Origin: Vicinamibacteria bacterium
GTDB taxonomy: Bacteria > Acidobacteriota > Vicinamibacteria > Marinacidobacterales > Marinacidobacteraceae
Assembly: GCA_963555995.3 (NCBI GenBank)
Contig: OY821641.1
Coordinates: 1,856,001-1,920,000 of the forward strand
DNA: 64,000 nucleotides
Direction: 5' to 3'
Below are positions 21,411 to 34,786 of the stretch, piece after piece (position 1 is the stretch's first letter; the number at the start of each line of letters is the position of its first letter). A program made the translations under genes and the position numbers. The notes beneath the pieces were generated by a model that was given only the letters and a program-made list of their open reading frames with translations, had not been told where the DNA came from and searched no databases.

Positions 21411-22598
21411 ATGAAGACCACGCGTCGCAGTTTCCTCAGTCTGGCGCCCGCCGCCGGCAGCGCCGCATCCCTCCATGCGATCAGCGCCCGGGGCCGGGAG
21501 GCCTGGGAGGCCGAGAACGGCTTCCGGGGCGGGCCGGTCTTCGTCCCTCCCCCCGAGGACGACGAGATCCGGATCAGCAGCAACGAGAACCCACTGGGAC
21601 CGGGGCCGGCCGCGGTGGCGGCGCTCCGGGACGCCTACGGATCCATCATGCGCTATCCGATGAACGCACGGGTCAGCGGGACCGACCTCCGCAGCAAGCT
21701 CGGGGAGATGCACGGGGGCAAGGCCGGGAACGTGGTGCTCTCGGCCGGGTCCGGGGAGATCCTGCGGACCGCGGTCCGCGTCTATACCGGCCCCGACCGG
21801 CCGCTGGTCACCGCGGAATGCTCCTACGAGAGCCCGGTACGGGCCGCCCGCTACTTCGGCGCCTCCGTCAAGGCCCTCCCCCTGACCGGCGGCCTCGGAC
21901 TCGACCTCGACAAGATGGCGGGAGCGGCGATCGGCGCCGGGCTCGTCTTCCTCTGCAACCCCAACAACCCGACCGGCACCGTCCATTCCCTCGCCGACGT
22001 GACGGACTTCGTGAACTTCGTCAAGAAGGAGTCGCCCTACACCGCCATCCTGCTCGACGAGGCCTACTACGACTACGCCTCGCATCCGGGCTTCGACACC
22101 GGCGCCGGACTCGCGATGGAGCACCGCGACGTGTTCGTGGCGCGGACCTTCTCGAAGGCCTTCGGGATGGCCGGCCTCCGGATCGGCTACGGCTTCGGGC
22201 AGGCGGACACCATCGCAAAGCTCGCGCCGCTGCAGCTCACCTTCGGCACCTCCGTCCTCTCCATCGCCGCGGCGATGGGATCGCTCGAGGATCCGGACTA
22301 CATCAAGAAGGAAATTCAGCGGAACGAAGCCGCCCGCAAGCTCACCCACGACTTCTTCTCGGGCCATGGCCTCGATCCGGTCCCCAGCAACACGAACTTC
22401 ATCTTCGTGAACATCGGCCGGCCGGCGAAGGAGTTCCGCGAGGCCTGCGCCGAGCGGGGCATCATGGTGGGGCGGGACTTCCCTCCCTACGAGAACACCC
22501 ACGCCCGCATCTCGATCGGCACCCTCGAGGAAATGCAGCGCGCCACCGCGGTCTTCGCGGAAGTGCTCGGCCTCGCCACCGCGGATCAACAACAGTAG
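21411..22598 (+). CDS. HisC-like class I/II PLP aminotransferase with Tat signal
   Basis: SSNENPLGP, CNPNNPTG, DEAY, RTFSKAFGMAGLRIGY; TTRRSFL. Confidence 0.9.
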   Translation: MKTTRRSFLSLAPAAGSAASLHAISARGREAWEAENGFRGGPVFVPPPEDDEIRISSNENPLGPGPAAVAALRDAYGSIMRYPMNARVSGTDLRSKLGEMHGGKAGNVVLSAGSGEILRTAVRVYTGPDRPLVTAECSYESPVRAARYFGASVKALPLTGGLGLDLDKMAGAAIGAGLVFLCNPNNPTGTVHSLADVTDFVNFVKKESPYTAILLDEAYYDYASHPGFDTGAGLAMEHRDVFVARTFSKAFGMAGLRIGYGFGQADTIAKLAPLQLTFGTSVLSIAAAMGSLEDPDYIKKEIQRNEAARKLTHDFFSGHGLDPVPSNTNFIFVNIGRPAKEFREACAERGIMVGRDFPPYENTHARISIGTLEEMQRATAVFAEVLGLATADQQQ

Positions 22599-22655
22599 TT
22601 TCAGCCCATCAGCGAAGAATCCGAGATCCCCCCGCTACGAGGAGGTAGCCACCCC

Positions 22656-23831
22656 ATGCTCTCCCGCCGCAGTTTCCTGAGTCATGCCTCCGCCGGCGCC
22701 GCCGGCCTCTACGCCGCCACCTTCGTGCGCTCGCGTCTGCGCGAGCAGTACGCCTTCGCCGCCGAAATGGGGATTGCCCCCGAAGAGGCGATCAACCTGG
22801 CCAACAACGAGAACTCGCTCGGCCCCGGCGATTTCGTGATGGACGCTCTCGACTCGGTGATCGGTCCCGAAGGCGTGATCGCCGGCCGGTATCCGTTCCG
22901 TTTCACCGGCCCGCTGCGGGAGGCGATCGCCGAGAAGTCGGGCGTCAAGCCGGAGAACGTCCTCGTCGGCGCCGGCTCCACGCAGATCCTGGTGGACTGC
23001 ACGCACCAGTACGCGAGCCGGGAGAAGGCGCTCGTCGGGTCCCTCCCGACCTACGAGGAGTGCTTCGGCTATGCGGCGCTCATGGGCTACCGGACCAAGG
23101 CGGTGCCGCTGACCGCCGACTTCAAGATGGATCTCGACCAGACGCTCCACGCCTGCAAGGGAAGCGGGATGCTCTTCTACTGCAACCCGAACAACCCGGT
23201 GGCGACGCTCGTGGACCCGGCGCAGGGCAAGGACTTCCTGATGCGGGCGCTCGACGTGGAGAAGAACCTCCGCATCCTGGTGGACGAGGCCTACATTGAC
23301 TACGTGACCACGCCGGGCCACGAGACCATGATCCCGACCGCCATCGAGAACCCGCGGCTCATCGTGGCGCGCACCTTCTCGAAGGCCTACGGAATGGCCG
23401 GGCTCCGGGTCGGTTACGCGATCGCCCACGAGGACACCATCGCGGAACTCGACGAGTTCCACCTGGGCAACTCGGTGAGCACCCCGGCGCTGGTCGCCGC
23501 CAACGCCGCCCTCGAGCGCGACAAGGCGGACCCCGACTACCTCCCGAACGAGAAGAAGCGGAACGCCGAGGCGCGGGACTTCATCATCAAGTTCTTCGCC
23601 GACCGCGGCCTGAGCGCCACCGACGCCCAGACGAACTTCATCTTCGTGGACGTGGGGATGCCAATCGAGCAGTTCCAGGCGGCCTGCGCCGCCGAAGGCG
23701 TCCGCGTCGGCCGGCCGTTCCCCCCGCTGTGGACCCGCTGCCGCATCTCCATCGGCACGATGGACGAGATGCAGCGCGGCGCCGCCAAGATGGCCACGGT
23801 CCTCGACGCCGCCCAGAAGCTGGCCGCGTAA
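22656..23831 (+). CDS. Second HisC-like PLP aminotransferase with Tat signal
   Basis: NNENSLGP, CNPNNP, DEAY, RTFSKAYGMAGLRVGY; LSRRSFL. Confidence 0.9.
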   Translation: MLSRRSFLSHASAGAAGLYAATFVRSRLREQYAFAAEMGIAPEEAINLANNENSLGPGDFVMDALDSVIGPEGVIAGRYPFRFTGPLREAIAEKSGVKPENVLVGAGSTQILVDCTHQYASREKALVGSLPTYEECFGYAALMGYRTKAVPLTADFKMDLDQTLHACKGSGMLFYCNPNNPVATLVDPAQGKDFLMRALDVEKNLRILVDEAYIDYVTTPGHETMIPTAIENPRLIVARTFSKAYGMAGLRVGYAIAHEDTIAELDEFHLGNSVSTPALVAANAALERDKADPDYLPNEKKRNAEARDFIIKFFADRGLSATDAQTNFIFVDVGMPIEQFQAACAAEGVRVGRPFPPLWTRCRISIGTMDEMQRGAAKMATVLDAAQKLAA

Positions 23832-23832
23832 C

Positions 23833-24082
23833 GGCTTGGAACGCCGGTCTCCAGACCGGCACCAGCGGCGCTCCGCGCCGCGCACGGCCTGACGCCACCG
23901 GCGCCGGGCGGCTTCCCCGGCTTGGAACGCCGGCTTCAGCCGGCACCGCGGGCCGAAGGCCCGCGGATGTCCTCTCCCCGTCGCGGTGATGTGACGCGAG
24001 CCAGGCATCACCGGGCAGGTCACCTTGGTGCCGCCCGCTGCGCTCCGCGCAGCGGTGCCGGCTGAAGCCGGCGCTCCAAGCC
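23833..24082. repeat. REP + REPIN-like element
   Basis: Units at about 23833, 23919 and 24055 (rev). Confidence 0.85.
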
Positions 24083-24214: not shown

Positions 24215-24469
24215 ATGCCGCTGAACATCAAGGACTCCGAAACTCACACCCTGGCGAAGCAGCTAGCCGGGGTTACCGGAGAAACCCTGACCCAGGCTGT
24301 CCGCCAGGCGATTCACGAGCGCCTCGCTCGCGCCCGGACGGTTCACGATGCGACTTCGCTCGCGGGCGAACTGGACCGCATCGCACTCCACTGCGCGCGC
24401 CTGCCGCGACGTGACACCCGCAGCGCCGACGACATCATCGGATACGACGAGCGAGGCATCCCTCTGTGA
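24215..24469 (+). CDS. vapB: VapB antitoxin (Rv0623-like)
   Basis: MPLNIKD.ET..LA..LA..TGETLT.AV...IIGYDERG; overlaps vapC. Confidence 0.9.
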   Translation: MPLNIKDSETHTLAKQLAGVTGETLTQAVRQAIHERLARARTVHDATSLAGELDRIALHCARLPRRDTRSADDIIGYDERGIPL

Positions 24470-24867
24470 TCGTGCTCGACTCATCGGCGCTGGTCGCCAT
24501 CCTGAGTGACGAGCCCGAGCGGCGCGCTCTCAACGAACGGATCGCGGAGGCCGCCGAGGTCCGTATCAGTGCGGCGAATCTCCTCGAGGCGCGGATCGTC
24601 CTGTTCGCCCGCTACGGCGAGGACGCCGTCCGGGATCTGGACGCTTTTCTGCTCCGCAGCGGGACGACCGTCGTGGAGGTATCCCCCCGAAACGCCGACG
24701 TGGCATTTGATGCCTACCGGCGGTACGGTCGAGGTACCGGCCACCCGGCGAGACTCAACTACGGCGACTGCTTCGCGTACGCATTGGCGAAGCAGTCCGG
24801 CGCCCCGCTTCTGTTCAAGGGCGACGATTTTTCGCAAACCGACATTCCGGCCGCAGCTTCCTCCTGA
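24466..24867 (+). CDS. vapC: VapC PIN-domain toxin
   Basis: MIVLDSSALVAIL..EP, HPARLNYGDCFAYALA, LLFKGDDF. Confidence 0.95.
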   Translation: MIVLDSSALVAILSDEPERRALNERIAEAAEVRISAANLLEARIVLFARYGEDAVRDLDAFLLRSGTTVVEVSPRNADVAFDAYRRYGRGTGHPARLNYGDCFAYALAKQSGAPLLFKGDDFSQTDIPAAASS

Positions 24868-26754: not shown

Positions 26755-27708
26755 TCATCCGAACGCTTCGAGTAGCCGCCGCCAGTTCTCGCGTTCGCGC
26801 TCGGGGCTGAACAGCGGGGCGCGCGCCGCGCCGTGCCGCGTGAGGTGCTCGAGGAAACCCGGCTCACGCTCCGCGCGCCGCAGGAGGCCCCGGAGTTCCC
26901 CGGTGTCTTCGGGCCGGAAATAGCCCGGGTGGTCCGGACCGAGTAGCCCGACGTTTCCGGGGATCCGGGACGCGGTGACCGGGAGCCCGGCGGCCACCGC
27001 CTCCGACACCACGTTGGCTCCCCCCTCCGTCAGCGACGAGATCACCATGAGGTGCGCCCGTTCGTAGAGCCGCCGCACGCGCCAGGCCGGGACTTCGCCC
27101 AGCCACCGGTAGCGCGGGTTGCGCGCCATTTCACGGCGCGCGGCTTCCGCCCATTCGGGGTCCCGCGCTCCCCCGGCGTGGAGGACCCGCAGGCGCGAGT
27201 CCGCCGGCATCCCCCGCGCCGCCCAGGCCGTTCGCAGCGGGTCCTTCTCCCGGCGGAGGTGCCCCACGACGCACACGTCGAAGGTCCGTTTCGAGGGACG
27301 GCGCTCCACGCTCCCGCCTGAGACCGACTGGTGCACCACGCGCACCCGGGCGCGGAATTCCGGCGGCAGCGCCTCCCCGACCAGGTCGTGCAGCCCGACG
27401 AGCACGTCGGCGCATTCGAGCGACGGACGGGTGGTCTCCGGCTCCGTCTGCAGGAACCCGTAGATGTCCGTCCCGGTCAGCGCCACGATCAGCGGGCGGG
27501 TGGGAAAACGCGCCCGGAAGCGGCCGATCGAAGCGGCGCTCCGCCAGGCGTGGAGGGCGATCATCGCGTCCGCGGATACCCCGTCCCAGGCCGTCCGGAC
27601 AGCCACCCGGTGGCCGAGCGACCGCAGCAGCGCCGCCCAGCGCCTCGCGGTGATCCGGTTCCCGAAGCGGGACCGCGCGCCCGCGGGGGTTACTAGAATG
27701 ATTCGCAC
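26755..27708 (-). CDS. senB: Selenosugar synthase SenB-like glycosyltransferase
   Basis: VTP...GNRITARRWA, MIALHA.RSA, LTGTDIY, VGHLR.EKDP, S..EGGANV.SEA, adjacent to an egtB-like gene. Confidence 0.85.
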   Translation of the reverse strand: MRIILVTPAGARSRFGNRITARRWAALLRSLGHRVAVRTAWDGVSADAMIALHAWRSAASIGRFRARFPTRPLIVALTGTDIYGFLQTEPETTRPSLECADVLVGLHDLVGEALPPEFRARVRVVHQSVSGGSVERRPSKRTFDVCVVGHLRREKDPLRTAWAARGMPADSRLRVLHAGGARDPEWAEAARREMARNPRYRWLGEVPAWRVRRLYERAHLMVISSLTEGGANVVSEAVAAGLPVTASRIPGNVGLLGPDHPGYFRPEDTGELRGLLRRAEREPGFLEHLTRHGAARAPLFSPERERENWRRLLEAFG

Positions 27709-27728
27709 GGGCGGACCCTGCCTCCAGC

Positions 27729-29024
27729 ATGACCCAGCGCGTTCCCACAGATCGTCTCGCCGCCATCATGGAAGACGCCCACCGTCGCAGCATCGCGCTG
27801 ACCGCGGACCTCGACGACGACCAGTTGATGGGGCCGCGGTCGCCCATCGTGAATCCGCTCAGGTGGGAGATCGGGCACGTCGCGTGGTTCTACGAGAACT
27901 TCATCCTGCGCGGCCTCTACGGGCACGCAGCGATCCTCCCGCAAGGAGACGAACTGTACGACTCGGCAACCGTCCTCCAGGACACGCGCCGGGCGCTGCC
28001 GCTCCTCGGCATCGAGGAAACGATCCACTACGCCGAGACCGTCAGGGACCGCTGTCTCGAACGGCTCGCTCCGGGTACGGCCAGCGAGCGGGACAGCTTC
28101 ATGTACCAGTTCGCCACCTTCCACGAGGACATGCACACCGAGGCGTACATCTACTCCCGGCAGACCCTCGGCTACCCGGCGCCGCGGCTGGGCCGAAGCC
28201 CCGCCCGGGAACCGTCCGGCAGTTGCCCCGGCGACGCCTCCGTTCCCGGCGGGACCTTCCGGCTGGGAGCGGAGCGGGACGCGCCCTTCCGCTACGACAA
28301 CGAGAAGTGGGCGCATCCCGTGCGCGTAGAGCCGTTTTCGATCGCGAGGGCGCCGGTCACGAACGCGGAGTTCGCCGAGTTTGTCGAAGCCGGGGGTTAC
28401 CGGAAGCGGGAGTTCTGGAGCGAGGCGGGCTGGACCTGGCGGGAACGGGCCGGCGCCTCCCGCCCCGTCTATTGGCTCTCCGGCGGGGAGCACGGGTTCC
28501 GGGTGCGGCGCTTCGACGGGATCACGCCCCTGCCGCCCGCCGAGCCGGTCATCCACGTCAACTGGTTCGAGGCGAACGCCTGGTGCGCCTGGGCCGGCCG
28601 GCGGCTGCCCACCGAGATCGAGTGGGAGGCCGCCGCGCTCGGGGAACCCGACGGCGACCGGCTGGCTCCGACCAAAAGGACGTACCCGTGGGGCGAGGCG
28701 CCTCCCGAAGCCCACCGCGCGAACCTGGACGCCTGGGCGCTCGGATGCCTCGACGTGGGAGCGCTTCCCGAGGGGGACAGCGCCTTCGGCTGCCGGCAGA
28801 TGCTCGGCAACGTCTGGGAGTGGACGGCGGACACCTTCAGGCCCTTCCCCGGTTTCCGCCCCGACTCCTACCGGGACTATTCCGAAAGTCGGTTCCACCG
28901 GACGAAGGTTCTGCGCGGCGGCGCCTGGGCCACCCGCGGCCGGCTGCTGACCGGCCGCTACCGCAACTTCTTCGGCCCGGAACGCCGCGACATCATCGCG
29001 GGGTTCCGGACCGTGCGGACGTAG
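27729..29024 (+). CDS. senA: Selenoneine synthase SenA-like (EgtB-related DinB + FGE-sulfatase domains)
   Basis: NPLRWEIGHVAWFYE, FHEDMHTEA (iron-binding His motif), RLPTE.EWE, GNVWEW, YRNFF.P.R.DI.AGFRT. Confidence 0.85.
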   Translation: MTQRVPTDRLAAIMEDAHRRSIALTADLDDDQLMGPRSPIVNPLRWEIGHVAWFYENFILRGLYGHAAILPQGDELYDSATVLQDTRRALPLLGIEETIHYAETVRDRCLERLAPGTASERDSFMYQFATFHEDMHTEAYIYSRQTLGYPAPRLGRSPAREPSGSCPGDASVPGGTFRLGAERDAPFRYDNEKWAHPVRVEPFSIARAPVTNAEFAEFVEAGGYRKREFWSEAGWTWRERAGASRPVYWLSGGEHGFRVRRFDGITPLPPAEPVIHVNWFEANAWCAWAGRRLPTEIEWEAAALGEPDGDRLAPTKRTYPWGEAPPEAHRANLDAWALGCLDVGALPEGDSAFGCRQMLGNVWEWTADTFRPFPGFRPDSYRDYSESRFHRTKVLRGGAWATRGRLLTGRYRNFFGPERRDIIAGFRTVRT

Positions 29025-29034
29025 CGGTTCGGGT

Positions 29035-29472
29035 CTATTCGTCCGGGGCGCCCGGGTACACCCGCTCGCCCTCGTAGTCCCTCAGACCGCAGAAACCGAC
29101 GACTTCGTATCCGTTTGCCTGTAGCAGCTCCGCGGCACGCGCGGCTCTTCCGCCACCCTGTCAAGCGGTGAGGATGGGAACTCCGGCCGGGAGTTCGCCG
29201 ATCCTCGCCTCCAGTTCATCGATCGGAATGTGGACGAAGCCGTCAATCGTGCCGTGCTCGGCGAGTTCCTCGTCGGTGCGGACGTCGAGCAGCAGCGCGC
29301 CGTTCGTGAGGGCGGCGTCAATGTCCGCCGCCTCGACCCGGGGAGCCGGCTCCGGGGCCGGCGCTTCCGCGGCGGGAGCGGGGGCCTCGGCGGGAGGCTC
29401 TCCACCTCCGCAACCCGAGGCGACGGCCGCGACCGCGAGTCCGACGCCGGTCAGCAGGAAGAGTTTTCGCAT
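29035..29472 (-). CDS. Selenocysteine-containing rhodanese-domain lipoprotein (145 aa; TGA at 29161-29163 read as Sec)
   Basis: MRKLFLLTGVGLAVAAVASGC...LLLDVRTDEE...HIPIDEL...PILTA-TGA-QGGGRAARAAELLQANGYEVVGFCGLRDY...TAG. Confidence 0.85.
29130..29145 (-). promoter_or_regulatory. Putative SECIS hairpin (lipoprotein rhodanese)
   Basis: GCCGCGCGTGCCGCGG begins 15 nt after the in-frame TGA. Confidence 0.6.
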
Positions 29473-29491
29473 CGTGGACCTCCGTTGAGAA

Positions 29492-29833
29492 TCAATCGAG
29501 CGGCCGGTACTCCCGGTCACCCGCGTACTGCTTGAGGCCGCAGAAACCCACGACCTCGAATCCCGCGTTCTCCAGAATGGCCGCGGCACGCGCGGCTCGT
29601 GGTCCCACCATTCAGGTGGTGAGGACCGGACGGTCACGCGGCAGCTCGTCCACTCGGTCCGCCAGCTCTCCGAGATGGATGTGGACCGCGCCGGGAATCG
29701 TCCCCGATTCGGCCAATTCGAGCGCGGTGCGCACGTCCAGCAGGAGCACCTTTTCGTCGCGCAGCACCTCGTCAATCTGACCGGCGGCGACGAACGGCGC
29801 CCGCGTCCCGAGCGCGCGCCCCATCAGGCTCAT
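29492..29833 (-). CDS. Selenocysteine-containing single-domain rhodanese (113 aa; TGA at 29612-29614 read as Sec)
   Basis: LLLDVRT..E...GTIPGAVHIHLGEL...PVLTT-TGA-MVGPRAARAAAILENAGFEVVGFCGLKQY...TGA. Confidence 0.85.
29580..29596 (-). promoter_or_regulatory. Putative SECIS hairpin (single-domain rhodanese)
   Basis: GCCGCG-CGTGC-CGCGGC begins 15 nt after the in-frame TGA. Confidence 0.6.
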
Positions 29834-29839
29834 GTTGCG

Positions 29840-29848
29840 AGCGTATCA
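29840..29848 (-). promoter_or_regulatory. Extended -10 box (TGnTACGCT), leaderless start of the rhodanese pair
   Basis: TGATACGCT lies 6 nt upstream of ATG 29833, with no Shine-Dalgarno sequence. Confidence 0.5.
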
Positions 29849-29979
29849 GGGGGGAGTCCGAGCCACCGGGAACTCGTGAGTTCGCTGTCTCGCCTCCCTG
29901 CGGACCCTCACCGGGAGAAACCGCCATGAGGCGGGTCCTCCGGCACACGCCGCCGGTCATGAAAATGTCTGAAGCAGCC

Positions 29980-30233
29980 GGGAACGCCGGTCTTCAGACC
30001 GGCACGCGCTGCGCGACAGCGCAGCGCACGGCACAACGCTTCCGCGTGCGATGGCCCTCGGCTCTCGGATCATCACCGTGAACACCTGCACGACATCCGC
30101 GGGCCTCCGGCCCGCGGTGCCGGTCTGAAGACCGGCGTTCCCAGCCGGCGTCGCCACTTCCGCTGGTTGACGTCGCGCCGGAACCGCATTTTCACAGCAA
30201 CCGGGGCGATGCCGGCCGGAGGCCGGCACTCCG
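29980..30233. repeat. REP/REPIN-like cluster (GGTC-stem variants)
   Basis: GCCGGTCTTCAGACCGGC at about 29985, its inverse at about 30117, and GCCGGCCGGAGGCCGGC at about 30211. Confidence 0.8.
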
Positions 30234-32959: not shown

Positions 32960-32965
32960 GTGGTC

Positions 32966-33283
32966 ATGCAGTCCATCAAGGTGACCGAACTCAAGACTCA
33001 TCTGAGCCGGTACCTGCGGCAGGCGTCCCGCGGAGAGAGGATCACGGTCAGAGATCGCGACGATCCGATCGCGGAACTCGGTCCGGCGCGCGGCGAGCCG
33101 CTCTCGTGTCGCGACCGCCTGGTGCGTGAGGGCCGACTCCGGCCCGGGACGCAGGACTGGGGCGCCCTGAACATCTCGCCCATCGCGCGACGCGTGGACA
33201 TCCAGGCATCGCTCCGCGCCGTCCGCGAGGATCCGGATGAAGTACGTCGACGCCAGCGCGCTCCTTCGCCTCCTGTTCGCTGA
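32966..33283 (+). CDS. Phd/YefM family antitoxin
   Basis: IKVTELKTHLSRYL....GE.I.V..R..PIA.L.P. Confidence 0.85.
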   Translation: MQSIKVTELKTHLSRYLRQASRGERITVRDRDDPIAELGPARGEPLSCRDRLVREGRLRPGTQDWGALNISPIARRVDIQASLRAVREDPDEVRRRQRAPSPPVR

Positions 33284-33671
33284 ACCCGGTCCGTCGGTCC
33301 CGCTGCGGGCCGGCCAATGGGTGGTCTCCTCCCGGCTCGTCGAGATCGAAGCGTTCCGGGCCGTTGATCGGGAACGGCTGCTCGGCGGCTTGACCGACAC
33401 CGAGACGGCTGTGAAGCGCAAGGAGTTGATCGAACTGCTGGCGACAATGGATCTCGCGCCGGTGGACGACTCGGTGATCGCCGGCGCGAAGGCTTCGTTC
33501 GCGGTGAATCTCCGCGCGCTCGATGCCATCCACGTAGCGACGGCGGAACTCCTGGCGGCGTCGGCCGACGGCGAACCGCTGGAGTTCTGGACGCATGACG
33601 AGCGTCAGGCTACGGCAGCCCTTTCGCGCGGCCTGGCCGTCTATGGCGTGGGCACCGCTGACGGCCGCTGA
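33237..33671 (+). CDS. vapC: VapC-like PIN toxin
   Basis: YVDASALL.L...EP, LRALDAIHVATA, FWTHD.RQ..AA. Confidence 0.9.
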   Translation: MKYVDASALLRLLFAEPGPSVPLRAGQWVVSSRLVEIEAFRAVDRERLLGGLTDTETAVKRKELIELLATMDLAPVDDSVIAGAKASFAVNLRALDAIHVATAELLAASADGEPLEFWTHDERQATAALSRGLAVYGVGTADGR

Positions 33672-33717
33672 CGACTATCGTTCGTGAACCCGGGTAGCGT
33701 TGCGACGCGCGCGGCCC

Positions 33718-33968
33718 GGAGCGCCGGCCTCCGGCCGGCATCGCCCCGGTTGCGGTGAAAATGCGGGGTCGGCGAAACGCTGTCCGTCGAGATGGTGCCA
33801 TCGGCTTGGAGCGCCGGCTTCAGCCGGCACAGCGAGCCGAAGGCTCGCGGACGTCGTGCCGCGGTGCGCGGTGATGGACGGGCAGCCCGAACGCCGTCGG
33901 GCGCGCCAGCGTCGTGCCATCCGCTGCGCTCTGCGCAGCGGGTGCCGGCTGAAGCCGGCGCTCCAAGC
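33718..33968. repeat. REP + REPIN-like element preceding the tandem array
   Basis: Units at about 33718, 33803 and 33942 (rev). Confidence 0.85.
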
Positions 33969-34786
33969 CGTGGGCGCCGTGAGGGCGAGTCGCGTTGCGA
34001 CGCGCGCGGTGCGAGCACCGCGGGTGCCGGCTGAAGCCGGCGCTCCAAGCCGTGGGCGCCGTAAGGGCGAGTCGCGTTGCGACGCGCGCGGTGCGAGCAC
34101 CGCGGGTGCCGGCTGAAGCCGGCGCTCCAAGCCGTGGGCGCCGTAAGGGCGAGTCGCGTTGCGACGCGCGCGGTGCGAGCACCGCGGGTGCCGGCTGAAG
34201 CCGGCGCTCCAAGCCGTGGGCGCCGTGAGGGCGAGTCGCGTTGCGACGCGCGCGGTGCGAGCACCGCGGGTGCCGGCTGAAGCCGGCGCTCCAAGCCGTG
34301 GGCGCCGTAAGGGCGAGTCGCGTTGCGACGCGCGCGGTGCGAGCACCGCGGGTGCCGGCTGAAGCCGGCGCTCCAAGCCGTGGGCGCCGTGAGGGCGAGT
34401 CGCGTTGCGACGCGCGCGGTGCGAGCACCGCGGGTGCCGGCTGAAGCCGGCGCTCCAAGCCGTGGGCGCCGTAAGGGCGAGTCGCGTTGCGACGCGCGCG
34501 GTGCGAGCACCGCGGGTGCCGGCTGAAGCCGGCGCTCCAAGCCGTGGGCGCCGTGAGGGCGAGTCGCGTTGCGACGCGCGCGGTGCGAGCACCGCGGGTG
34601 CCGGCTGAAGCCGGCGCTCCAAGCCGTGGGCGCCGTAAGGGCGAGTCGCGTTGCGACGCGCGCGGTGCGAGCACCGCGGGTGCCAGCTGAAGCCGGCGCT
34701 CCAAGCCGTGGGCGCCGTGAGGGCGAGTCGCGTTGCGACGCGCGCGGTGCGAGCACCGCGGGTGCCGGCTGAAGCCGGCGCTCCAG
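33942..34786. repeat. Tandem array of 10 x 82-bp units plus a terminal 11th REP
   Basis: Unit GTGCCGGCTGAAGCCGGCGCTCCAAGCCGTGGGCGCCGT[G/A]AGGGCGAGTCGCGTTGCGACGCGCGCGGTGCGAGCACCGCGG, period 82. Confidence 0.97.

What the first reader, a model, noticed from the sequence alone, without database searches (positions are those of the whole stretch)
29035..29833. Two tandem hidden selenocysteine rhodaneses, one cytoplasmic and one lipoprotein
Seen: both minus-strand genes have a rhodanese N-half (LLLDVRT..E...G.I.G.VHI...EL), stop at TGA, then continue in frame for about 40 codons with mutually homologous sequence (RAARAA..L...G[FY]EVVGFCGL..Y.G.R.Y). The TGA falls at the catalytic Cys of the six-residue rhodanese loop CxxGxR, giving U-MVGPR and U-QGGGR. 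Two independent nonsense mutations at the same codon are unlikely. The second gene carries a lipobox (VASG-C) and a Pro/Ala linker, so it is a predicted exported selenoprotein. Both keep a downstream FCG cysteine that might resolve a selenenyl-sulfide (inference). Known: Sec-containing rhodanese-related proteins exist, but I do not recall a description of this tandem cytoplasmic + lipoprotein pair.
Basis: partly seen in the sequence, partly recalled or inferred. Interest (0 to 1): 0.92.

Follow-up and report, generated by a model that had tools for sequence, protein, structure and literature searches.

The report
Paired selenocysteine rhodaneses, inside and outside
Two neighbouring small sulfur-transfer (rhodanese) genes each have a "stop" codon where the catalytic cysteine belongs, which is almost certainly read as selenocysteine, giving one predicted cytoplasmic and one predicted membrane-anchored exported enzyme of a known selenoprotein kind that databases cut short across Acidobacteriota.

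Summary
Observation confirmed. Gene A (29833-29492, minus) reads U74-MVGPR; gene B (29472-29035) reads U104-QGGGR behind a lipoprotein signal. The genome has selA, selB, selD and tRNA-Sec. Both genes, each with its TGA, occur in 27 of 28 genomes of the family. A 5-bp hairpin 21 nt after each UGA fits the bacterial SECIS model and shows compensatory changes. A pattern scan found the wider subfamily in 117 loci, nearly all Acidobacteriota: 131 of 135 matches TGA, 4 TGC, and the four TGC genomes gave no selB. The likely function is PspE/GlpE-like sulfane-sulfur transfer on both sides of the membrane (inferred, untested). It is not a new kind: UxxG rhodanese selenoproteins are catalogued, and a signal-peptide member of this subfamily is in the 2008 GOS dataset. 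This scan also reported the pair before in another genome (e1-1155536). Not found in my searches: the two-compartment pair and the second Cys that is lost in the cytoplasmic clade.

The parts
29492..29833 (-). Gene A: single-domain rhodanese, 113 aa, no signal peptide (predicted cytoplasmic), loop U74-MVGPR
29612..29614 (-). In-frame TGA of gene A at the catalytic column (predicted Sec74)
   Evidence: (27 of 27 orthologues TGA)
29581..29595 (-). SECIS-like hairpin of A: 5-6 bp stem, 5-nt loop CGUGC starting 21 nt after UGA
29540..29542 (-). Cys98 of A (FCG, 24 codons after the TGA); Ser in most orthologues
   Evidence: Ser in 21 of 27
29840..29848 (-). Extended -10-like motif TGATACGCT, 6 nt before the ATG of A; suggests a leaderless transcript
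   Evidence: TAnnnT 5-7 nt before the start in 20 of 26 orthologues examined; the sigma-70 scan found no full promoter
29479..29483 (-). Shine-Dalgarno-like GGAGG before gene B, in the 19-nt gap after A
   Evidence: GGAGG in the same place in the 11 genomes printed
29035..29472 (-). Gene B: rhodanese lipoprotein, 145 aa, loop U104-QGGGR
29410..29472 (-). Lipoprotein signal peptide of B ending in ASG-Cys21 (codon 29412-29410)
   Evidence: basic start, hydrophobic stretch and [GA]-Cys in 27 of 27 orthologues
29161..29163 (-). In-frame TGA of gene B at the catalytic column (predicted Sec104)
   Evidence: 27 of 27 TGA
29130..29144 (-). SECIS-like hairpin of B, the same 15 bases as in A
   Evidence: pS 0.051 in codons +1..+11 against 0.41 and 0.50 on either side
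29089..29091 (-). Cys128 of B (FCG), candidate partner of Sec104
   Evidence: 27 of 27; Cys in 117 of 117 non-A matches
27729..29024 (+). Neighbour, not part of the unit: selenoneine synthase senA, convergent with B
   Evidence: NF041186, 481 bits, cut-off 420; adjacent only within the genus
26755..27708 (-). Neighbour, not part of the unit: selenosugar synthase senB
   Evidence: TIGR04348, 413 bits, cut-off 300

Best explanation
A and B are intact genes whose in-frame UGA is almost certainly decoded as selenocysteine at the rhodanese catalytic position, and they likely work as a cytoplasmic and a periplasm-facing sulfane-sulfur transferase, in the manner of E. coli GlpE and PspE. Shown: the TGA column, purifying selection through it, the Sec machinery, a covarying hairpin, the rhodanese fold of the model of B and a conserved lipobox. 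Inferred: SelB binds the hairpin and inserts Sec (about 0.97); one leaderless bicistronic mRNA (about 0.6); B is lipid-anchored outside the cytoplasm and A is not (about 0.9). Inferred chemistry (about 0.6): the selenolate takes sulfane sulfur from thiosulfate or polysulfide, forms a Se-S adduct and passes the sulfur to a small or protein thiol. Most speculative (about 0.35): in B the Cys 24 residues downstream closes a selenenylsulfide that resets or protects Sec in the oxidising periplasm, while A relies on cytoplasmic thiols and can lose that Cys.
For: Machinery over curated cut-offs: selA 489.7 bits, selB 297.1, selD 247.4, tRNA-Sec 69.7 with a TCA anticodon; the only tRNA-Trp is CCA. selB in 27 of 27 family relatives. 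Pair with both TGAs in 27 of 28 family genomes. Wider subfamily: 131 TGA and 4 TGC of 135 matches. The TGC genomes gave selB in 0 of 4 and selA in 0 of the 3 tested. Five TGA genomes outside the order gave selB in 3 of 5, and the other 2 have selA. Hairpin: RNAalifold finds it unprompted; 285 of 285 cells pair, with U-A and A-U compensations; 103 of 104 TGA/RAARA matches keep all 5 pairs, 9 through a double change; loop codon CGT in 47 of 54 and CGG in 7, never CGC, although CGT is 6% and CGC 39% of Arg codons genome-wide. It meets the loop, G[G/U] and 16-37 nt rules of the model in PMC13188914. Model of B: pLDDT 85.9; best match B. anthracis CoADR-RHD, TM 0.81, rmsd 1.1. A and B are the only single-domain rhodaneses found in the genome. 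PspE and GlpE are a periplasmic and a cytoplasmic thiosulfate sulfurtransferase (abstracts of PMC2593051 and PMC10215317).
Against: No protein or RNA evidence. The hairpin is not the dominant fold of the single sequences (z-scores -1.0 to +0.9; pair probability 0.17 and 0.23), and B's is borderline on the -7.5 kcal/mol rule (-6.5 bare, -7.8 with flanks). The four TGC genes encode RASRA, and TGA genes with RASRA also score only 2-4 pairs in this register, so that control is weak. selB was not found in 2 of 5 TGA genomes outside the order. No conserved partner gene points to a substrate; no YeeE and no CoA-disulfide reductase over cut-off were found in the genome (93% complete). The second Cys is also kept in the four TGC genes and in an apparently signal-less gene in G052, and its loss in A is one clade's history, not independent events. 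The Sec-Cys distance could not be read from the model.
Confidence: 0.6

Rival explanations
1. The proteins are selenoproteins but act as Sec/Cys thiol-oxidoreductases (peroxide, sulfenic acid or disulfide reduction) built on the rhodanese fold, not as sulfur carriers.
For: The second Cys is present in 117 of 117 non-A matches and sits at the end of the strand that follows the active-site helix. Other UGA candidates in this genome look like peroxiredoxin, AhpD and OsmC proteins by motif (labels recalled). The 2026 review expects redox roles for most uncharacterised selenoproteins.
Against: The six-residue loop and all top fold matches are sulfurtransferase or persulfide-handling domains. A works without the second Cys in 21 of 27 genomes.
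Confidence: 0.2
2. The pair traffics selenium: B captures selenite-derived Se outside and A hands it to SelD or the selenoneine pathway inside.
For: senA and senB are adjacent. A rhodanese-like lipoprotein, ExtH, is linked to selenite uptake in Geobacter, and Se-substituted rhodanese was proposed as a Se donor (titles in reference lists only).
Against: senA passes the search in the genus but in only 1 of the 12 genomes of the family's other genera, all of which keep the pair, so the adjacency is genus-specific. A Se-uptake carrier that itself needs Sec is a poor design under Se limitation (inference).
Confidence: 0.12
3. The UGA is a true stop or another residue (Trp, Gly), and the genes are truncated or pseudogenes.
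For: Databases annotate 70-77 aa and about 100 aa products ending at the TGA. The hairpin is weak in single-sequence folding.
Against: A truncated protein would lack the catalytic residue and last strand. The tail is under purifying selection. Homologues have TGC at the column. tRNA-Sec is present and tRNA-Trp is CCA only. Gene A ends at a second TGA used as a stop.
Confidence: 0.03
4. They are Cdc25-like phosphatases or arsenate reductases of the rhodanese superfamily.
For: Shared fold; the loop ends in Arg (sequence).
Against: The Arg is 5 residues after Sec (UX4R), not the CX5R of Cdc25 (motif recalled). No such protein is among the listed PDB matches.
Confidence: 0.05

Closest known systems
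Predicted bacterial selenoprotein 'Sulfurtransferase COG0607' (GOS survey, PMC2398784 Dataset S1) and rhodanese-like forms 2 and 4 with a UxxG motif (PMC13188914 Table 1)
   Same: Single PF00581 domain, Sec at the catalytic column, UxxG. One GOS read has a signal peptide, U-NGGRR and FCGL. It differs from locus L168 at 6 of 120 residues (compared by eye), and L168 is 47% identical to B over 91 aa (E 3e-26).
   Different: That entry has a cleavable-type signal and no lipobox, and was a lone read. In the passages I read no localisation, second Cys or signal-less partner is described. A's loop (U-MVGPR) is UxxP, which does not fit UxxG. The catalogue's representative sequences could not be fetched, so form 2 versus form 4 is undecided.
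E. coli PspE (periplasmic) and GlpE (cytoplasmic) single-domain rhodaneses
   Same: One exported and one cytoplasmic single-domain rhodanese in one cell (abstract of PMC2593051); weak NCBIfam matches to both.
   Different: Cys enzymes; far below the family cut-offs (17-25 bits against 102). Here both have Sec, they are adjacent and B has a lipobox. That pspE and glpE are unlinked and PspE is not lipidated is recalled.
Rhodanese domain of CoADR-RHD (B. anthracis, 3ICT) and Npsr (Shewanella loihica, 3NTA)
   Same: Best sequence and fold matches: 39-40% identity, TM about 0.8, loops C-QLGMR and C-QVGLR aligned to the Sec loop.
   Different: Those domains are fused to a flavoprotein reductase; no such reductase over cut-off was found in this genome.
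NCBIfam NF041203 rhodanese_LYCAU (form 3, CxU) and Geobacter ExtH
   Same: Rhodanese selenoprotein (NF041203); rhodanese-like lipoprotein (ExtH).
   Different: A scores 24.6 bits against a cut-off of 115 and B does not match; no CxU motif. ExtH is 49 kDa in a cytochrome-porin cluster.

Membership tests
Bacterial selenoprotein (UGA = Sec) | In-frame TGA aligned with Cys in homologues | tested here: met
   4 TGC genes at DNA level; PDB alignments
Bacterial selenoprotein (UGA = Sec) | selA, selB, selD and tRNA-Sec in the genome | tested here: met
Bacterial selenoprotein (UGA = Sec) | Coding conservation downstream of the TGA | tested here: met
Bacterial selenoprotein (UGA = Sec) | bSECIS geometry: 3-9 nt loop, G[G/U] in the first two positions, 16-37 nt from UGA, stem of 4 bp or more | tested here: met
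   loop CGUGC at 21 nt, 5-6 bp, compensatory changes
Bacterial selenoprotein (UGA = Sec) | bSECIS energy at or below -7.5 kcal/mol | tested here: inconclusive
   A -9.9; B -6.5 bare and -7.8 with flanks; not the dominant single-sequence fold
Bacterial selenoprotein (UGA = Sec) | Selenium detected in the protein | not testable with these tools
   needs 75Se labelling or mass spectrometry
Single-domain rhodanese (PF00581) | Domain score over cut-off and rhodanese fold | tested here: met
   (model made for B only)
Single-domain rhodanese (PF00581) | Sulfurtransferase activity | not testable with these tools
   assay needed
Rhodanese-like selenoprotein forms 2/4 (UxxG) | UxxG motif, gene B | tested here: met
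   U-QGG-G; subfamily link to the GOS entry through L168
Rhodanese-like selenoprotein forms 2/4 (UxxG) | UxxG motif, gene A | tested here: inconclusive
   U-MV-G-P: Gly is third after U, so it reads UxxG if the motif means U,x,x,G; B fits either count. A nests inside the same subfamily in the tree
Rhodanese-like selenoprotein forms 2/4 (UxxG) | Sequence kinship with the catalogue's representatives MBM9537886.1 and MCY3690685.1 | not testable with these tools
   no tool fetches these accessions
NF041203 rhodanese_LYCAU (form 3) | CxU motif and score of 115 bits or more | tested here: not met
PspE / GlpE equivalogs | NCBIfam cut-off of 102 bits | tested here: not met
   works-like claim only
Bacterial lipoprotein (gene B) | Basic N-region, hydrophobic region, lipobox Cys | tested here: met
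   27 of 27 orthologues, read by eye; no signal-peptide predictor was available; many have non-canonical Trp at -2

The most novel reading that the evidence does not exclude
The exported member is an Acidobacteriota-wide hidden selenoenzyme that uses a Sec and a Cys 24 residues downstream as a redox pair on a rhodanese fold, a two-centre chemistry not described for single-domain rhodaneses, and some lineages have added a signal-less copy to form a trans-membrane sulfane-sulfur relay (in this family, and separately in G052).
Probability: 0.22. Interest if true: 0.7.

Novelty: new variant of a known kind. Interest (0 to 1): 0.4.

Why it matters
All rhodanese selenoproteins in the 2026 catalogue rows I saw carry bioinformatic references, and the review says the functions of this group remain largely uncharacterised. 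This family offers a compact test set: natural Sec and Cys versions, exported and cytoplasmic versions, with and without a second Cys, all about 100 residues. It would allow a direct test of what selenium adds to sulfur transfer and how a Sec enzyme survives outside the cytoplasm. It also corrects annotation: about 100 of the top 120 database hits to B and about 70 of the top 120 to A are products cut at the TGA (read from lengths), and none of 18,950 NCBIfam models reaches its cut-off on A or B.

Tried and rejected
Single-sequence folding gave no significant structure; only the comparative analysis did. The search for related loci with alignment A1 confirmed nothing, because its pattern required Cys. 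A functional link to senAB was rejected: adjacency is genus-specific. No conserved neighbour was found around single-copy members: the largest shared-flank cluster held 6 of the 80 loci that went into. Origin of A by tandem duplication of B is not supported: the careful tree (51 rows after removing near-copies, short rows and two long branches, L125 and L148; 94 columns) nests A among other lipoprotein-type members and never groups A with B (0% of 200 bootstrap trees), whereas the quick 148-row tree placed A, B and the outgroup in one open fork, so the origin is unresolved. The tRNA-Sec model did not separate TGA from TGC genomes, ringing over cut-off in 5 of 5 (62-64 bits in the two TGA genomes, about 50 in the three TGC genomes). 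The sigma-70 scan found no promoter or terminator. The genome-wide UGA scan is crude: it recovered A but missed B. Expression stayed unchecked. Haft and Tolstoy 2025 (PMC12013261) is not held and may bear on novelty. A paper search for the taxon name gave 0 papers. No complex prediction was run, since no binding is claimed.

Full report
Observation. Both genes are as described. Read with TGA=U, A (29833-29492, minus) gives 113 residues with U74 and B (29472-29035) gives 145 with U104. Both pass the Pfam rhodanese cut-off and share 57% identity over 95 residues, including the tail after the TGA. A profile of the family aligns that column to the catalytic Cys of CoADR-rhodanese and Npsr. An AlphaFold model of B's domain (pLDDT 85.9) matches 3ICT at TM 0.81.

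Organism and machinery. The genome is 3.8 Mb, 70% G+C and 93% complete. It has selA, selB and selD over curated cut-offs and a tRNA-Sec with a TCA anticodon; its tRNA-Trp is CCA. Named loci that carry the same pair are titled Acidobacteria, Vicinamibacteria or Candidatus Marinacidobacterium sp. (L106, L135), so this is an Acidobacteriota lineage, probably Ca. Marinacidobacteraceae. Habitat was not determined.

Conservation. All 28 genomes held for the family were searched: 27 have both genes, each with one TGA; the miss (G007) is an 89%-complete, 210-contig assembly. selB passes its cut-off in 27 of 27 relatives. Across the 27 pairs, pN/pS in codons +12 to +35 is 0.31 (A) and 0.17 (B), against 0.20 and 0.17 in the 40 codons before the TGA. 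These genomes are kin, not independent samples.

Wider family. By title, 113 are Acidobacteriota, 3 are unnamed bacteria and 1 is Burkholderiales. Of 135 matches, 131 are TGA and 4 TGC; several come from one genome. The four TGC genomes gave no selB and the three of them tested gave no selA. Of five TGA genomes outside the order, three gave selB and the other two gave selA; the missing selB in those two is unexplained, and their completeness is not shown. Full-length database proteins with Cys also exist, but only the four TGC loci are confirmed in DNA.

Insertion signal. Both genes carry the same 15 bases over the Ala-Ala-Arg-Ala-Ala codons after the UGA. RNAalifold on 64 sequences predicts one 5-bp hairpin there. 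All 285 cells pair, two pairs change on both sides, and slid registers do worse (shuffles overstate significance among kin). In the wider set 103 of 104 TGA/RAARA matches keep all five pairs, nine through a double change. The loop Arg codon is CGT in 47 of 54 and CGG in 7, never CGC, though CGT is 6% and CGC 39% of Arg codons in the genome. Synonymous divergence falls to 0.05 in B's first eleven codons (0.41 and 0.50 around) and to 0.36 in A's (0.55 and 0.56). Loop size, G[G/U] and the 21-nt spacing fit the model in PMC13188914 (passages). Against this, single-sequence folding does not favour the hairpin, B's energy is borderline, and the TGC control is weak because those genes encode RASRA.

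Compartments. B has a basic start, a hydrophobic stretch and [GA]-Cys in 27 of 27 orthologues. A has no such stretch, and an in-frame stop five codons upstream of its ATG rules out a longer N-terminus here. A TAnnnT motif lies 5-7 nt before A's start in 20 of 26 orthologues examined, which suggests a leaderless mRNA; B follows after 19 nt with GGAGG. Most single-copy members elsewhere show a signal by eye, and 58 of 113 match a crude lipobox pattern. A therefore looks like a derived, signal-less form: it nests inside the lipoprotein-rich clade but is not sister to B in the careful tree, while the quick tree was ambiguous. G052, in another family, has a second tandem pair in reverse order: a lipoprotein followed by an apparently signal-less copy, both with TGA (one fragmentary genome).

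The second cysteine. The residue 24 codons after the TGA is Cys in 117 of 117 non-A matches although the pattern also allowed Ser, Thr, Arg and Trp, but it is Ser in 15 of 18 A-type matches there and in 21 of 27 family orthologues. It is also kept in the TGC genes and in G052's signal-less copy, its loss in A is a single clade's history, and I could not read distances from the model.

Context. senA and senB lie next to B in genus g1 only. In other genera the pair sits between a peptidase gene and aminotransferase genes, and senA was found in 1 of those 12 genomes. No conserved partner emerged. The genome has one two-domain rhodanese besides A and B, and no YeeE or CoA-disulfide reductase was found.

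Mechanism. I commit to sulfane-sulfur transfer through a Sec nucleophile on both sides of the inner membrane, by analogy with PspE and GlpE (abstracts only: PMC2593051 and PMC10215317). Sec decoding is near certain (0.97), the localisation likely (0.9), the chemistry inferred (0.6) and the Sec-Cys bond in B speculative (0.35). Rivals are a thiol-oxidoreductase role (0.2), selenium trafficking (0.12), phosphatase or arsenate reductase (0.05) and truncation (0.03).

Known kinds. PMC13188914 (passages and Table 1 rows) lists five forms of rhodanese-like selenoprotein, two with UxxG; PMC9312934, PMC1088965 and PMC1976440 (passages) list them too. Dataset S1 of PMC2398784 (supplement search) holds a signal-peptide 'Sulfurtransferase COG0607' with U-NGGRR and FCGL that differs from locus L168 at 6 of 120 residues by eye; L168 is 47% identical to B. 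So an exported member of this subfamily has been listed since 2008. Exported bacterial selenoproteins are also reported for the SAO system (bioRxiv 10.1101/2022.07.06.499078, passages; its supplements are closed). PMC13510729, PMC5877670 and PMC12013277 were seen as passages. No NCBIfam model reaches cut-off on A or B. Seven searches showed no description of the pair; PMC12013261 was unavailable and subscription papers are not covered. This scan noted the same pair in another genome (e1-1155536), which is not independent evidence.

Verdict. A real, well-supported pair of hidden selenoprotein genes and a new variant of a known kind. Interest 0.4. The boldest reading left open, a Sec/Cys redox pair on a rhodanese fold feeding a two-compartment relay, has probability about 0.22 and would merit 0.7.

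Noticed in passing
L039:7710-8424 and matches in G045, G030, G039, G043, G042: A B-type Sec-rhodanese lipoprotein gene lies in a 0.6-0.7 kb unit that is 94-100% identical across 5 of 55 genomes of the order (2 families, 4 genera), with 8 matches in G045, among dispersed repeats, a transposase remnant, McrBC, type I restriction and HigB genes. It looks like a selenoprotein gene spreading as mobile cargo; the mobilising element was not identified.
   Followed up: partly
window 26755-29024: Divergent senB and senA (selenoneine synthesis), both over NCBIfam cut-offs, adjacent to the pair only in genus g1.
   Followed up: yes
L054:2962-3688 (G052): A separate tandem pair: a Sec-rhodanese lipoprotein followed by an apparently signal-less Sec copy, in a 45% G+C region.
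   Followed up: partly
G000 C1: 1335270(-), 1621024(+), 1183397(-), 1190114(+), 1619913(+), 3698142(+), 1026209(-): Other in-frame UGA candidates with coding-like flanks and hairpins, picked by eye from the 21 rows of a crude scan; by recalled motifs they resemble peroxiredoxin, AhpD, OsmC and MerB-like proteins. Unvalidated.
   Followed up: no
window 29840-29848: Conserved extended -10-like motif 6 nt before the ATG of gene A, suggesting leaderless translation of a selenoprotein mRNA.
   Followed up: partly
window 33675-34770: Array of about 82-bp repeats between genes, seen as repeated ORF translations, with related copies near 23850, 26500 and 29970-30150.
   Followed up: no
window 24215-24867 and about 32960-33671: Two probable toxin-antitoxin pairs of the VapBC/PIN type, judged by eye from ORF translations; labels recalled, not scanned.
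   Followed up: no
window 21411-23831: Two tandem aminotransferase-like ORFs about 41% identical, each starting with a twin-arginine-like motif, conserved beside the pair across the family; label recalled, not scanned.
   Followed up: no
protein P0183: A lipoprotein homologue with neither Cys nor a stop at the catalytic column but keeping the downstream YCG cysteine; single sequence, possibly an error.
   Followed up: no
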